A DNA stretch of 64,000 nt, from the NCBI GenBank assembly GCA_039932175.1, contig JBDTQM010000002.1:136-64135 (forward strand), given 5' to 3'. Both the position numbers and the translations under genes were made by a program. Under the pieces are notes generated by a model. The model saw only the letters and a program-made list of their open reading frames with translations, did not search any database and was not told the DNA's origin. The stretch is from Specibacter sp. GTDB taxonomy: Bacteria > Actinomycetota > Actinomycetes > Actinomycetales > Micrococcaceae. Positions 16,571 to 50,355 of the stretch are shown here, one piece after another (the stretch's first letter is position 1; every line of letters starts with the position of its first letter).

Positions 16571-16667
16571 ACGCTATCGCAGCAATGGTGTGTTTTTCCC
16601 TGACGCTATCGCAGCAATGGCTGAATATTGCAGAACGCTCTCTCACTCTTGTGGGGGAGCGTTCTGC
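16571..16667 (+). repeat. Left repeat array (18-bp unit, 32-bp period)
   Basis: ACGCTATCGCAGCAATGG at 16571 and 16603, variant ACGCTCTCTCAC at 16635, and an inverted variant ending at 16662 forming a hairpin (16630-16667). Confidence 0.9.
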
Positions 16668-16715
16668 TGTCCGGGAGTTTGCGCACGGGTTCGTGCCGGA
16701 CGGCGGCGGCGTGGC

Positions 16716-17666
16716 TCAGCTGCCGGACGCAAAGCCGGAGGAAATGGCGGGGTCCACCCAGGCCTGCCGCAGGGAGCTTTTGATGCGGCGCACTGCATCG
16801 CGGAAACCGTCCGCCAAATCGTCGTCGGTGAAGACCAGCACGGTCCAGCCGGCAGCCCTGAAAGCTTTGTCTCTTCGCAAGTCGCTGTGCCGCTGAAGCT
16901 CGTCAAGGTGATGGGCGCCGTCGTATTGCAGGGCGATCCGCCGGGAGCGGTAGCCGGCGTCAGCCGATGGGCTGCCGGGCCGGTTCCATAGGGTGAGCTG
17001 CAAGTCGGGCTCCGGCAGGCCGGCGTCGAGCATGGCGAGCCGCAGGAGGGTTTCCGGGCTGGAATCGGCGCCCACGCGCATGCGGTCCAGGGCTTCGCGG
17101 GCCCGGACAATTCCTTGCATGTTTCCATGCCGCCCCACCGTTGCCCGCAGTGAATCGAGGGTGGCGTAAGGCGACCGGCGCCCTTCGAATTCGGGCCGCG
17201 GGATGCGGATGAGCTGGTCGCCCATGCACACAAGATCCTTGAGTGGCAGTATGCGGGCCAGATCAAGCCAGGTGCGGGCCCGGGTGCTGATGGGCAACCC
17301 GTCGTCGAGCTCAATCTCGTCGGGGAAGAAAAGCGTTTTGTGGGCGGTGATTCCGTGGCGCCGGACTTCAGGTGTTTTTCTGGGCTTGCTCAGATGCAGC
17401 GCGTTGGAATCGCCCAGCCACGGGGGAAGCACCAATTGGTGCAGCCTTGCCGCCGTGGAATGCGAAATCCACGCCCCGGGCGACACTGCGCAAAGGGCCC
17501 TTGCCGCCTCCCGCAGCTCGAAGTCCCAGCCGACTGGACGATACAGCCCGTAGCTGACGCCCGCTACGCCCTTGCCACGCAGCCGGTGGCGTGCCAGCCC
17601 CAGCGACTGGGCCTCTGCCCGCGTGAAAGGGCCGGTTGGGATGCTGAATGCGCCGCTGGAATCCAT
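16716..17666 (-). CDS. AbiEi-like N-terminal domain plus DUF559/Vsr-like PD-(D/E)XK nuclease-fold protein
   Basis: AWISHSTAARLH and STRARTWLDLAR (AbiEi-type region), then SSPETLLRL...PEPDLQ...ADAGY...IALQYDGAHH...RRDKAFRAAGWTVLVF; ATG at 17666. Confidence 0.75.
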   Translation of the reverse strand: MDSSGAFSIPTGPFTRAEAQSLGLARHRLRGKGVAGVSYGLYRPVGWDFELREAARALCAVSPGAWISHSTAARLHQLVLPPWLGDSNALHLSKPRKTPEVRRHGITAHKTLFFPDEIELDDGLPISTRARTWLDLARILPLKDLVCMGDQLIRIPRPEFEGRRSPYATLDSLRATVGRHGNMQGIVRAREALDRMRVGADSSPETLLRLAMLDAGLPEPDLQLTLWNRPGSPSADAGYRSRRIALQYDGAHHLDELQRHSDLRRDKAFRAAGWTVLVFTDDDLADGFRDAVRRIKSSLRQAWVDPAISSGFASGS

Positions 17667-17705
17667 GAACACATTCTGGCGCAAGTGGGCCGCCGGCGTG
17701 CAAAG

Positions 17706-17714
17706 TTATCCACA
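17706..17714 (+). promoter_or_regulatory. Perfect DnaA-box consensus upstream of the DUF559 gene
   Basis: TTATCCACA lies 40 nt upstream of ATG 17666; CAGAAT sits 6 nt before that ATG on the minus strand. Confidence 0.4.
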
Positions 17715-17760
17715 GCCAAGCAGTGACCGCTGCCCGCGGCTGTTTGAGCGGCGGACAGCG

Positions 17761-17836
17761 GTGCGAAAGCATCGCGAAAAATCCAGCCATTGCTGCGATA
17801 GCGTCAGGGAAAAACACACCATTGCTGCGATAGCGT
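17761..17836 (-). repeat. Right repeat array (inverted, 32-bp period)
   Basis: CCATTGCTGCGATAGCGT ending at 17804 and 17836; degenerate GTGCGAAAGCAT ending at 17772. Confidence 0.9.
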
Positions 17837-47993: not shown

Positions 47994-48092
47994 TGGGGCG
48001 CCCCCTTGGCGGTAGCGGAATCATGGGTGCGACGCGGCAAAGGCGCCGGGTGCATTCTGATTGTAGTTCAGGTTTTGGGGCACAATGGAGCG

Positions 48093-48905
48093 GTGCCCAT
48101 TTTGAACAAAGACATGACATTGTGTATTTCCCTCGCCGCACGGCCCAGCAATATTGGTACGCGGTTCCACAATTACCTGTACGACGCATTAAACCTGAAC
48201 TACGTGTACAAGGCGTTTGCCCCGAAAGACTTGGCGCAGGCAGTGGCCGGAATTCGCGGCCTGGGCATTCGCGGGGCTGCCGTTTCCATGCCCTACAAGG
48301 AGGATGTCATCGCCATGGTCGACATCATGGATGCCTCCGCCTCGGCCATCGATTCGGTGAACACAATTGTTAACAATGACGGCGTGCTGACCGCCTACAA
48401 CACCGACTATCTGGCCATTGCCGAGCTGCTGGCGGCCCATGAGGTCCCTGTCAATTTCACCGTTCTGTTGCGCGGTTCCGGCGGCATGGCCAAGGCTGTT
48501 GCTGCCGCATTGCGCGACGCCGGAATGACCCGCGTTTCAATTGTGGCCCGCAACGAGAAGGCGGGGCAGGCCCTGGCCGGCCTCTACGGCTTTGGCTGGC
48601 TGGCAGAGGTTGGCGGGTCAACAGCGGACCTGCTCATCAACGTCACACCCCTGGGGATGGCCGGCTCCGAGGAATCAACCCAATCCTTCACCGACGCCAC
48701 AGTGGCTGCGGCGCAGGTGGTCTTCGACGTCGTGGCGCTCCCCTCCGAGACTCCCCTCATCCGGGCTGCCCGTGCCGCGGGCAAGCCCGTCATCACAGGC
48801 GCGGAGGTCATTGCCATTCAGGCGGCAGAACAGTTTGTGCTGTACACGGGTGTGCGCCCCAGTCCCGAGCTGGTCCGCGAAGCCTCGCAGTTCTCCCGCT
48901 CCTAG
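48093..48905 (+). CDS. Shikimate dehydrogenase-like protein (SdhL class)
   Basis: MPILNKDMTLCISLAARPSNIGTRFHN, AVSMPYKE, VNTIVN, AYNTDY, LRGSGGMAKA; CACAAT lies 6 nt before GTG 48093. Confidence 0.85.
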   Translation: MPILNKDMTLCISLAARPSNIGTRFHNYLYDALNLNYVYKAFAPKDLAQAVAGIRGLGIRGAAVSMPYKEDVIAMVDIMDASASAIDSVNTIVNNDGVLTAYNTDYLAIAELLAAHEVPVNFTVLLRGSGGMAKAVAAALRDAGMTRVSIVARNEKAGQALAGLYGFGWLAEVGGSTADLLINVTPLGMAGSEESTQSFTDATVAAAQVVFDVVALPSETPLIRAARAAGKPVITGAEVIAIQAAEQFVLYTGVRPSPELVREASQFSRS

Positions 48906-48907
48906 AA

Positions 48908-48999
48908 ACGCTCTCGCAGCAGTGGTTGCTTTTTCCCGAACGCTCTCGCACTGTACTGCGATAGCGTTCCGATGAAACTGACCATTGCTGCGATAGCGT
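48908..48999. mobile_element. Gene-less 92-bp palindromic copy of the 16571/17836 repeat family (REPIN/MITE-like)
   Basis: Forward units start at 48908 and 48940, inverted units end at 48967 and 48999 (32-bp period); the last unit CCATTGCTGCGATAGCGT is identical to 17819-17836; lies between convergent stops. Confidence 0.7.
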
Positions 49000-49014: not shown

Positions 49015-50250
49015 CTAGGGTGCGTGCGGCGCGTCCGTGGACCCATGCGGCGCAACCACGACGGCGACCCTGTCCTCGCCGATGCGGGTCAGGATCAGCG
49101 TTGCCTTGTTGGGTCCCTTGCCGGAGCCTGTGAGCAGTTGGCGGCGCAACTCTTCGGGTGTGGTTGAGACGCCGCGCTTCTTGATGTCCAGCACGCCTAT
49201 CCTGTTGGCCTTGACCCAGCTCTTAAGTGCCTTGACGTTGAACGGCTTGACCTCCAGGACCTTGTAGCCGCGGGCGAACGGTGTGTCCACCGGAGTGTCC
49301 GTGCAGATGTACGCGATGTGCTCGTCAACCAGGTGCGCTCCCATGGTGCGGGCCAGGTCAGCCACCAACCCTGCCCGGATCACAGCGCCGTCGGGCTCGT
49401 AGAGGTACCCGGCAATGGGGCCCACCGCAACGTCCTGGGCCCCCGGATCGTAGGCCACGGCGCTGGTGAGCTCATGCATCCCGCGCGCCGCCACCACCAG
49501 GGCTGCGCGGCGGATGCCCGGGCGGGCCAGTGCATTGAAATACAACCCAGCCTCCACCACATCGCCGTTGACGGAAATCCATTGGGCTTCAGCAGTTGCC
49601 GGCACGGCGTCGTGCGGAATGCCGGGGCCCATTTTGACGCCCACCGCCTTGCCGGAATCGGCCAGCTTTTCCACGAAGGAAAGCGGCGGTGAGAAAGCCT
49701 CGGGGTCAAAGAGCCGGGTGGTGCCGGAGGTGTTGGTGGTGCGCCGGGCCGGATCCAGCCATACGCCGTCAATGCCGCTCAGGTCTGTTTCCTCGGCGCG
49801 CCCGCAAATGACCGTCGCGTCGGGGAAGGGCATCAGGTTCACAGTGGTGCAGGCTGCCGTGATTTCATCCATCTCCACGGCCGTGACGGCAATGTCCAAG
49901 CTGGCCATGGCGAGCGAGTCGGCGCCCAAGCCGCAGCCCAGATCGGCCACCCGGGTGATGCCGGCCGCCGTGAACCGCCGCGCATGGAGGGCCGCAATGC
50001 TCAGCCTGGTGGCCTGCTCCAACCCGGCCTGGGTGAACAGCATTTGGTGCGCGAATTCGCCAAACTTTGCCTCGGCCTTGGCCCGAAGCCGGGATTGGGT
50101 GAGGGCGGCTGCCACCAGTTCGGGGGAGTGGCCGGCCTTGCGCAGGGTTTCGTTGAGCTTGAGGGAATCGGATTCCGAATAGGGGCCCAGGGAGGACAGA
50201 AGTTCCCATCCAGCAACGGTGAGAAGGGGGGAAATCGCATCAGTGGACAT
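49015..50250 (-). CDS. Class I SAM-dependent methyltransferase with a THUMP-like C-terminal domain
   Basis: GLEQAT, VADLGCGLGADS, WLDPARR, YLYEPDGAVIRAGLV, LDIKKRG; TACGAT lies 6 nt before ATG 50250. Confidence 0.85.
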   Translation of the reverse strand: MSTDAISPLLTVAGWELLSSLGPYSESDSLKLNETLRKAGHSPELVAAALTQSRLRAKAEAKFGEFAHQMLFTQAGLEQATRLSIAALHARRFTAAGITRVADLGCGLGADSLAMASLDIAVTAVEMDEITAACTTVNLMPFPDATVICGRAEETDLSGIDGVWLDPARRTTNTSGTTRLFDPEAFSPPLSFVEKLADSGKAVGVKMGPGIPHDAVPATAEAQWISVNGDVVEAGLYFNALARPGIRRAALVVAARGMHELTSAVAYDPGAQDVAVGPIAGYLYEPDGAVIRAGLVADLARTMGAHLVDEHIAYICTDTPVDTPFARGYKVLEVKPFNVKALKSWVKANRIGVLDIKKRGVSTTPEELRRQLLTGSGKGPNKATLILTRIGEDRVAVVVAPHGSTDAPHAP

Positions 50251-50355
50251 AGTTAAATCGTAACCGCCAGCCACCGCGTGACGAGCGTCACGGCAAATAG
50301 CGCACTAATAATTTGCGCAATTATTCCGCTGGTAATAGGTTCTTAGGAACGCTTA

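What the first reader, a model, noticed from the sequence alone, without database searches (positions are those of the whole stretch)
48908..48999. Solo 92-bp non-autonomous copy of the same repeat family, 31 kb away
Seen: two forward and two inverted units with the same 32-bp period and 14-bp spacers. The first spacer TTGCTTTTTCCCGA resembles TGTGTTTTTCCCTG of the large element. The central 28-bp palindrome (48940-48967) has the same span as the hairpin core at 16635-16662. Like the large element, it sits immediately between convergent stop codons. Inference: it is a REPIN/MITE-like derivative mobilised in trans, which is the key support that the family is mobile rather than a one-off duplication.
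Basis: partly seen in the sequence, partly recalled or inferred. Interest (0 to 1): 0.75.

Follow-up and report, generated by a model that had tools for sequence, protein, structure and literature searches.

The report
Gene-less palindromic repeat with DUF559 partner
The 92-base palindrome is an old, gene-less copy of a repeat family scattered behind about 40 genes of this Arthrobacter-group genome, and the family's sequence always matches the repeats around one uncharacterised nuclease gene (DUF559), which points to a repeat-plus-enzyme partnership like REP/RAYT but built on a different enzyme.

Summary
Window 48908-48999 is an imperfect palindrome: an 18-nt core, a 14-nt spacer and an 11-nt inner core, a 6-nt loop, then the mirror image. 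The period is 32 nt. It lies between the stop codons of two convergent genes.

It is not one of two loci. The genome holds 108 units at about 42 loci. They lie a median of 14 nt behind stop codons and are enriched between convergent genes (19 of 38, p = 5e-7).

The 1.27-kb "large element" is the same palindrome with a 316-aa gene at its centre. That protein has an AbiEi-like DNA-binding part and a DUF559/Vsr-like nuclease part. The genome has no RAYT.

In 11 of 11 genomes tested, the units flanking this gene are the genome's own dispersed units, and the unit sequence differs between species and between paralogs.

At this junction, other species carry a full gene-bearing element, a gene-less element, a single-unit remnant, or nothing.

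This copy is orthologous in every relative that shares the unit type. It is therefore old, not a recent insertion. Other copies differ in presence between species.

Mobilisation in trans by the DUF559 protein is inferred, not shown. No consistent target duplication was found. No paper describing this pairing was found.

The parts
48908..48925 (+). Outer forward unit, 18-nt core ACGCTCTCGCAGCAGTGG. It differs at 2 positions from the reference core ACGCTATCGCAGCAATGG, which is the large element's unit and the second commonest variant.
48926..48939 (+). Left 14-nt T-rich spacer. Its last 5 nt extend the inner stem.
48940..48967 (.). Central hairpin: 11-nt inner core ACGCTCTCGCA, loop CTGTAC, 11-nt inverted core TGCGATAGCGT (one mismatch).
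48968..48981 (+). Right 14-nt A-rich spacer.
48982..48999 (-). Outer reverse unit, CCATTGCTGCGATAGCGT. It is an exact reverse complement of the reference core.
48027..48905 (+). Upstream flanking gene, shikimate-dehydrogenase-like. Its stop TAG is at 48903-48905, 2 nt before the element. The start coordinate comes from my own gene caller and is uncertain.
49015..50274 (-). Convergent flanking gene, THUMP-like/methyltransferase. Its stop is at 49015-49017, 15 nt after the element.
16571..16620 (+). Cognate gene-bearing element, left arm: two exact forward units at 16571-16588 and 16603-16620 on the 32-nt period.
16634..16665 (.). Hairpin directly after the DUF559 stop codon (AGAACGCTCTCTCA...GGGGAGCGTTCT). 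It is conserved behind all orthologous genes and corresponds to the inner hairpin of the gene-less copies.
16716..17666 (-). 316-aa gene: AbiEi-like N-terminal part plus DUF559/Vsr-like C-terminal nuclease domain. The ATG at 17666-17664 is the start shared with orthologs.
17705..17715 (-). Conserved motif CTGTGGATAAC, 38 nt upstream of the ATG. It contains TGTGGATAA, which resembles a DnaA box (from memory).
17787..17836 (-). Cognate gene-bearing element, right arm: two exact reverse units. Their spacer is the perfect complement of the left arm's.

Best explanation
The 92-bp element is a gene-less, long-resident member of a REPIN-like population of modular palindromes. The population's cognate partner is the AbiEi-like/DUF559 nuclease gene at 16.7-17.7 kb.

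Shown:
- The architecture: 18-nt cores on a 32-nt period, mirrored around a short hairpin.
- About 42 copies placed just after stop codons.
- The gene-bearing element is the same palindrome with the gene at its centre.
- The flanks of the gene and the dispersed copies share a unit sequence that is specific to each species and each paralog.
- Copies gain and lose modules, and are gained or lost, between species.

Inferred:
- The protein's N-terminal winged-helix part binds the 18-nt cores. A 32-bp spacing is about three helical turns, which would put bound proteins on one face of the DNA, as AbiEi proteins bind inverted repeats cooperatively.
- The Vsr-like domain nicks or cuts at the element.
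- Repair copied from another element keeps the cores alike and now and then seeds a new copy or removes one.
- Copies persist behind genes because a hairpin there is harmless, or useful as a 3'-end structure of the mRNA.
For: 1. Family size: 108 units at about 42 loci. Sixteen of the 18 core positions are at least 88% conserved, and position 6 is free.
2. Position: 19 convergent, 18 tandem and 1 divergent context. Convergent enrichment has p = 5e-7 and divergent depletion p = 0.008. The median distance from a stop codon is 14 nt.
3. The large element has exact units, perfectly complementary spacers and the DUF559 gene at its centre.
4. All 17 close orthologs (65-76% identity, plus one at 53%) carry forward units upstream and reverse units downstream. 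The unit sequence is specific to each species, and the best period is 32 nt in 11 of the 12 loci measured.
5. Relatives at 32-56% identity in other Micrococcaceae genera mostly show the same layout and the same upstream motif.
6. A chimeric query of nine species-specific flank units found 8-52 dispersed matches in each of the nine genomes. The listed matches were mostly to that genome's own unit or, for the three near-identical unit types, a sister type. The same holds in G000 and G021.
7. Three other DUF559 paralogs in this genome are flanked by their own palindromes. One type has about 10 further loci, one about 5 and one none. A fourth, partial paralog has about 3 weak matches to its downstream sequence.
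8. Protein identity and unit identity are correlated: Mantel r = 0.65, p <= 1e-4, strongest for the N-terminal third.
9. Fold: the N-terminal part resembles the AbiEi antitoxin 6y8q (E = 3.6e-4). The C-terminal part resembles the catalytic domain of homing endonuclease I-Bth0305I (3r3p, TM 0.67) and the DUF559 protein 3hrl.
10. Copies differ in presence between species that share the unit type.
Against: - No biochemical or transcript evidence exists.
- The protein is not a known transposase or recombinase, and a PD-(D/E)XK nuclease alone does not explain strand transfer.
- The family has an invariant Gln where the related 3hrl and PvuRts1I have Glu (LQYDG against vEaDG and LEIDE). The nuclease may therefore be weak or inactive.
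- Only one of the polymorphic sites shows a target-like duplication, the 10-bp CCGTGCCTGA. The others show none, and some 'empty' sites are deletion remnants.
- This copy and the gene-bearing element are both syntenic over roughly 23% nucleotide divergence, so any movement is rare.
- The protein-unit correlation is partly what shared descent alone would give.
- The gene caller used for the context statistics is my own rough one.
Confidence: 0.6

Rival explanations
1. Homing-type reading. The palindromic repeats spread or persist on their own. The DUF559 gene is a free-standing homing-endonuclease-like cassette that recognises the palindrome and inserts into its centre. The 92-bp element would then be an uninvaded target site, or one from which the gene was lost, and not a derivative mobilised by the protein.
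For: - The best structural match of the C-terminal domain is a homing-endonuclease catalytic domain.
- The gene always sits at the centre of the palindrome.
- The same junction carries a gene-bearing element in G020, G007 and G058, and a gene-less one in about 13 other genomes. This is the with-gene / without-gene pattern of homing genes.
Against: - Each unit type has one gene-bearing copy against tens of gene-less copies in a genome. An active homing gene should invade them.
- The main copy is syntenic next to the inositol-1-phosphate synthase gene across the genus, as expected of vertical descent.
- The junction-borne genes form their own clade with different units. The 92-bp copy here carries the units of the other, synthase-linked gene.
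Confidence: 0.2
2. No mobility at all. The units are binding sites of an AbiEi-like DNA-binding protein (a regulator or a chromosome-structuring factor), or a shared terminator-type hairpin. Their likeness would be kept by selection and local slippage, and their distribution would reflect descent and deletion only.
For: - AbiEi proteins are autoregulators that bind inverted repeats (PMC7319586, from its abstract).
- This copy and several others are orthologous between species.
- Neighbouring modules within one locus are often identical, as slippage would give.
- The elements lie at 3' ends of genes.
- The invariant Gln at a catalytic-type position may mean the nuclease is inactive.
Against: - About 42 near-identical composite palindromes behind unrelated genes cannot arise site by site.
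- Each species and each paralog has a different unit sequence with its own dispersed copies. That requires spread of copies after the units diverged.
- Clear presence/absence differences exist between species with the same unit type, including one insertion with a 10-bp duplication.
- No T-run follows the hairpin. The only terminator-like hit is a small internal stem.
Confidence: 0.15
3. A classical MITE of an IS element, or a REP/REPIN moved by a RAYT encoded elsewhere in the genome.
For: It has terminal inverted symmetry, small size and an intergenic position.
Against: - No Y1_Tnp (PF01797) match was found in the 99.9%-complete assembly, while the control genomes gave matches.
- The only gene ever enclosed by these units is DUF559.
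- There is no consistent target-site duplication.
Confidence: 0.05

Closest known systems
REP/REPIN populations with their RAYT (TnpA-REP) gene (PMC3116915, PMC3333891, PMC5581495, PMC8266576)
   Same: - Short palindromic repeats, arranged as inverted doublets, in tens of extragenic copies.
- One vertically inherited partner gene flanked by the same repeats.
- Several gene-repeat pairs with different sequences in one genome.
- Copies that stay at the same site across species.
   Different: - The partner is an AbiEi-like plus DUF559/Vsr-like (PD-(D/E)XK) protein, not a Y1 HUH transposase. No Y1 gene is in the genome.
- The repeat is built of 18-nt cores on a strict 32-nt period, with 1-3 modules per arm.
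DUF559 genes bracketed by palindromic repeats, noted earlier in this scan in other phyla (for example E. coli ycjD with BoxC/'triplex' repeats; repeats in print in PMC4666352)
   Same: A DUF559 nuclease gene sits between inverted copies of a repeat that also occurs as gene-less copies.
   Different: - Here the protein is 316 aa, with a large AbiEi-like DNA-binding part in front of the DUF559 domain.
- The repeat is periodic and modular.
- Sequence likeness to BoxC was not tested.
- The earlier notes are unchecked AI notes, not publications.
BOX elements of Streptococcus pneumoniae and BIMEs of E. coli (from memory)
   Same: Modular intergenic repeats with a variable number of internal modules. 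They form long hairpins and often lie at 3' ends of genes.
   Different: There is no sequence relation. No partner gene is known for BOX, and BIMEs pair with RAYT.
Homing endonuclease I-Bth0305I (PDB 3r3p) and other Vsr-like nucleases
   Same: The fold of the C-terminal 100 residues matches (TM 0.67). One site occurs in with-gene and without-gene states.
   Different: - The gene here is free-standing and intergenic, not in an intron or intein.
- There is one gene copy per unit type.
- The family has an invariant Gln where 3hrl and PvuRts1I, the two relatives whose alignments were printed, have Glu.
AbiEi antitoxins (PDB 6y8q; PMC3985639, PMC7319586)
   Same: The N-terminal part has a related fold (E = 3.6e-4). 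AbiEi proteins bind inverted repeats cooperatively.
   Different: No AbiEii toxin gene is adjacent. The C-terminal domain is a nuclease fold. The presumed binding sites are dispersed through the genome.

Membership tests
REP/REPIN-RAYT system | Short palindromic repeat in many extragenic copies, typically as inverted doublets | tested here: met
   108 units at about 42 loci. Most are forward units followed by reverse units.
REP/REPIN-RAYT system | Cognate Y1 (HUH) RAYT gene flanked by the repeats | tested here: not met
   No PF01797 match in the genome, while controls gave matches. The enclosed gene is DUF559.
REP/REPIN-RAYT system | Partner gene single-copy per repeat type and vertically inherited | tested here: met
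   One gene per unit type. It is syntenic next to the inositol-1-phosphate synthase gene in most of the genus.
MITE (derivative of an IS) | Terminal inverted repeats and small size | tested here: met
   44-nt arms, 77% complementary.
MITE (derivative of an IS) | Target-site duplication of fixed length | tested here: inconclusive
   One site has a 10-bp duplication. None was seen at the other compared sites, whose flanks are too diverged.
MITE (derivative of an IS) | Parent element encoding a transposase | tested here: not met
   The gene-bearing form encodes an AbiEi-like/DUF559 protein only.
Intrinsic (Rho-independent) terminator | G+C-rich hairpin followed by a T-run | tested here: not met
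   The hairpin is strong, but no T-run follows it. The only hit is a 5-pair internal stem.
CRISPR array | Direct repeats of 23-47 nt separated by unique spacers of similar length, all in one orientation | tested here: not met
   The cores are 18 nt and the spacers are 14 nt and semi-conserved. The orientation is mirrored, with 1-3 modules per arm.
DUF559-with-palindromic-repeat pairing (earlier notes of this scan) | DUF559 gene bracketed by inverted copies of a repeat that also occurs without the gene | tested here: met
DUF559-with-palindromic-repeat pairing (earlier notes of this scan) | Protein binds or cuts its own repeat | not testable with these tools
   Needs binding and cleavage assays.
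Homing endonuclease gene | Nuclease fold of a known homing family, and alleles with and without the gene at one site | tested here: met
   Fold match to 3r3p.
Homing endonuclease gene | Resides in a self-splicing intron or intein, or spreads to all cognate sites | tested here: not met
   It is intergenic and free-standing, with one gene-bearing copy against tens of gene-less copies.

The most novel reading that the evidence does not exclude
The 316-aa AbiEi-like/DUF559 proteins of Micrococcaceae are the trans-acting partners of their own palindromic repeat populations. This would be a second, independently evolved nuclease-plus-repeat symbiosis alongside RAYT/REPIN. The winged-helix part would read the 18-nt cores arrayed every 32 bp. 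The Vsr-like domain would start copying, conversion or loss of elements. That would give a function to part of the very large DUF559 family and explain how species-specific repeat families arise in Actinomycetota.
Probability: 0.4. Interest if true: 0.85.

Novelty: new variant of a known kind. Interest (0 to 1): 0.68.

Why it matters
DUF559 is a very large protein family with no known function. Many bacterial repeat families, other than REP with RAYT, have no known partner enzyme.

This genus offers an unusually clean natural series:
- One gene family whose flanking repeats change sequence from species to species and from paralog to paralog.
- In each case the flanking repeat matches that genome's dispersed gene-less copies.
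- One junction, the one in this finding, is seen as a full element, a gene-less element, a single-unit remnant and an empty site.

The long DNA-binding part and the strict 32-bp spacing of the cores give a concrete binding model that can be tested. If it holds, it shows that repeat-plus-nuclease partnerships evolved more than once. It would also give a handle on how such repeats are kept alike over long times.

Tried and rejected
- Rfam, permissive search around the element: only chance-level matches.
- RAYT/Y1 transposase search in the whole genome: none.
- Sequence search of the protein against solved structures: nothing with the single sequence. The profile gave only weak matches to 3hrl, PvuRts1I and 3r3p.
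- NCBIfam: nothing above the cut-off.
- Target-site duplications at eight polymorphic sites: no consistent signal. The flanks are too diverged, at 70-85% identity.
- The roughly 1.1-1.2-kb inserts at the C176 junction in G002 and G006 are an ordinary dehydrogenase-like gene, not a DUF559 element. The insert at this junction in G051 is unrelated low-GC DNA.
- Strain-level presence/absence could not be tested:
  - The genus holds only 39 species genomes, and the closest is 77% identical at this locus.
  - No contig encodes an identical methyltransferase.
  - A Logan contig whose DUF559 protein is 97% identical shows the same large-element structure, but it ends in the repeat.
- Two early versions of my gene caller missed the shikimate-dehydrogenase-like gene and were replaced.
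- Literature searches for DUF559, AbiEi, Arthrobacter MITE and REPIN in Actinobacteria found no description of this pairing.

Full report
**1. The observation**

Window 48908-48999 reads as follows:
- forward unit ACGCTCTCGCAGCAGTGG
- spacer TTGCTTTTTCCCGA
- inner core ACGCTCTCGCA
- loop CTGTAC
- inverted inner core TGCGATAGCGT
- spacer TCCGATGAAACTGA
- reverse unit CCATTGCTGCGATAGCGT

Both arms have a 32-nt period, and the 44-nt arms are 77% complementary. The element starts 2 nt after the TAG of a shikimate-dehydrogenase-like gene. It ends 15 nt before the stop of a convergent THUMP-like methyltransferase gene. The unit pattern has 8 matches in the window against 0.26 expected. Seven of them lie at 16.57-16.62 kb, 17.79-17.84 kb and 48.9 kb. 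Either strand folds into one long hairpin: -68.4 and -62.0 kcal/mol, z about -7.5. No Rfam family matches.

**2. A genome-wide family**

The window is contig C2 of a 4.36-Mb, 449-contig assembly with 63% G+C. With up to 3 mismatches, the 18-nt core occurs 108 times, at about 42 loci.

The usual form is 1-3 forward modules, an 11-nt inner hairpin, and 1-3 reverse modules. Sixteen of the 18 core positions are at least 88% conserved, and position 6 is free. Neighbouring modules within a locus are often identical, which points to local duplication.

The last 5 nt of the spacer match between the two arms of one element more often than between elements (0.58-0.84 against 0.30-0.49). The first 4-5 nt do not match and form a recurrent bubble.

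With a codon-usage gene caller of my own, 19 loci lie between convergent genes, 18 between tandem genes and 1 between divergent genes. The background is 532, 2385 and 583 intergenic regions of those types. This gives p = 5e-7 for convergent enrichment and p = 0.008 for divergent depletion. The median distance from a stop codon is 14 nt.

**3. The large element**

At 16571-17836, two exact forward units and two exact reverse units, with perfectly complementary spacers, enclose one gene at 16716-17666 on the minus strand. Pfam gives only DUF559, for the last 60 residues.

An alignment of 25 relatives gives a confident model, with mean pLDDT 86. The N-terminal ~200 residues resemble the AbiEi antitoxin 6y8q. 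The C-terminal ~100 residues resemble the catalytic domain of homing endonuclease I-Bth0305I (3r3p) and the DUF559 protein 3hrl.

The family has an invariant LQYDGAHH motif. 3hrl and PvuRts1I have Glu at the position of the Gln.

The genome has no Y1/RAYT gene.

**4. The gene and the repeats go together**

The organism belongs to the cold-adapted Arthrobacter/'Specibacter' group.

All 17 orthologs examined share these features. They are 65-76% identical to the window's protein, except one at 53% whose flanks show a single palindrome instead of periodic units:
- forward units upstream and reverse units downstream
- a best period of 32 nt in 11 of the 12 loci measured
- a conserved hairpin after the stop codon
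- the motif CTGTGGATAAC upstream of the ATG, 34-38 nt in 12 of the 17 (the five shorter distances come from upstream alternative start codons that my script picked)

The unit sequence differs from species to species. Examples are ACGCCGTATCACCATTGG, ACGCTCGCTCACATCCGG and ACGCTCCCTCACTTCTGG.

A chimeric query of nine such units, searched in the nine genomes they came from, found 8-52 dispersed matches per genome. The listed matches were mostly to that genome's own unit or, for the three near-identical unit types, a sister type. The same holds for this genome and for G021.

More distant relatives (32-56% identity) in Arthrobacter, Pseudarthrobacter, Paenarthrobacter and Psychromicrobium mostly have the motif and flanking inverted repeats. 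Several of those repeats are on a 31-32-nt period.

In this genome, three other paralogs are each flanked by their own palindrome. One of those palindromes has about 10 further loci, one about 5 and one none. A fourth, partial paralog has about 3 weak matches to its downstream sequence.

Protein identity and unit identity are correlated (r = 0.65, p <= 1e-4), most strongly for the N-terminal third. Shared descent explains part of this correlation.

**5. This junction in other species**

| State at the junction | Genomes |
|---|---|
| Same unit type, various forms | G003 (forward unit plus inner hairpin), G053 (one reverse unit only), G021, G002, G006, G005 (larger forms) |
| Gene-less elements of other unit types | G001, G011, G009, G016, G052, G059 |
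| Full DUF559 element with its own units | G020, G007, G058 |
| 5-35 nt, no element | G008, G057, G014, G024, G017 |
| Unrelated hairpins | G010, G013 |

The three junction-borne genes form their own clade, apart from the synthase-linked clade that holds the window's gene.

The copy in the finding is therefore old. It was inherited since before these species split, at about 77% identity in the flanking genes. It has been trimmed or extended by whole modules.

**6. Turnover elsewhere**

Of 20 elements in G021, seven are shared with this genome and at least two lie at junctions that are empty here. One of those two insertions is flanked by a 10-bp direct repeat, CCGTGCCTGA, that is present once at the empty site.

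In the reverse test with 16 loci of this genome, contiguous flanks (no element) were found at these loci:

| Locus in this genome | Genomes with no element there |
|---|---|
| C72 | G021, G003, G006 |
| C29 | G006, G003 |
| C10a | G003 |
| C136 | G021 |
| C10b | G006 |
| C162 | G003 |
| C176 | G003 |
| C57 | G006 |

Alignments show no consistent duplication. At least one 'empty' site keeps a remnant of a unit, so it is a deletion.

**7. What it most likely is**

It is a gene-less member of a repeat population whose partner is the AbiEi-like/DUF559 protein. It works like REPIN/RAYT but is not a member of that family, because the defining Y1 enzyme is absent.

Binding of the cores by the winged-helix part, cutting by the Vsr-like domain, and spread or homogenisation by repair are inferences.

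A homing-type reading, in which the gene invades the palindrome, and a pure binding-site reading remain open. A role as a 3'-end RNA structure is plausible from position and stability. However, no T-run follows the hairpin, and no transcript data could be obtained.

**8. Novelty**

Public sources name the protein only 'DUF559 domain-containing', 'endonuclease domain-containing', 'very-short-patch-repair endonuclease' or 'hypothetical'.

The searched literature holds no description of DUF559 genes as partners of repeats. The nearest item is that DUF559 genes are enriched among predicted inversion targets, which fits genes flanked by inverted repeats (PMC9881135).

Earlier notes of this scan report the same pairing in other phyla. 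They are unchecked leads that agree with what I found independently here.

Noticed in passing
window 17705-17715 (minus strand); also L021-L079 upstream of each DUF559 gene: The motif CTGTGGATAAC lies upstream of the DUF559 start codon in nearly all relatives across several genera, 34-38 nt before the ATG in most. It contains TGTGGATAA, which resembles a DnaA box (from memory). It may be a promoter -10 region (TAACTT) or a protein site. The genome has 17 exact copies, and some on contig C35 look like a replication origin.
   Followed up: partly
G000 contigs C122:2910-4100, C70:5430-6670, C59:12060-13260, C42:6000-6760: Other DUF559/AbiEi-like paralogs (30-47% identity). Three are each flanked on both sides by their own long palindrome. 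The C70-type palindrome has about 10 further loci in the genome and the C122 type about 5.
   Followed up: partly
L021, L031, L034 (record JADHDY01, titled Sporosarcina beigongshangi REN13 = G021); protein P0087 (Bacillus sp. SRB_336): These public records carry Bacillota names, but their content is a high-GC Arthrobacter-group genome syntenic with this window. The labels are probably wrong, or the assemblies contaminated.
   Followed up: no
alignment A1, residue 247 of the window's protein: There is an invariant Gln in LQYDGAHH where the related nucleases 3hrl and PvuRts1I have Glu. This may mean altered or lost catalysis.
   Followed up: partly
G021:C78:133200-135030 (L117), orthologous to G000 C23:12509-12743: At a junction where this genome has a forward-forward/reverse-reverse-reverse gene-less element, G021 has a different DUF559 paralog (34% identity) with its own repeats. 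The 3' ends of convergent genes seem to be recurrent landing or retention sites.
   Followed up: partly
G005 junction, L007:1290-1360: A separate 32-nt tandem duplication (GGTGGCCCGGTCTCCCTCCTGCCGTTTCCGGT, two copies) lies just upstream of that genome's element at the same junction.
   Followed up: no
G000 C11:33745-34039, C23:12509-12743, C29:19959-20139: Some elements have 120-180 nt of unrelated sequence in place of the short central loop. In C11 this insert contains its own hairpin followed by a T-run.
   Followed up: no
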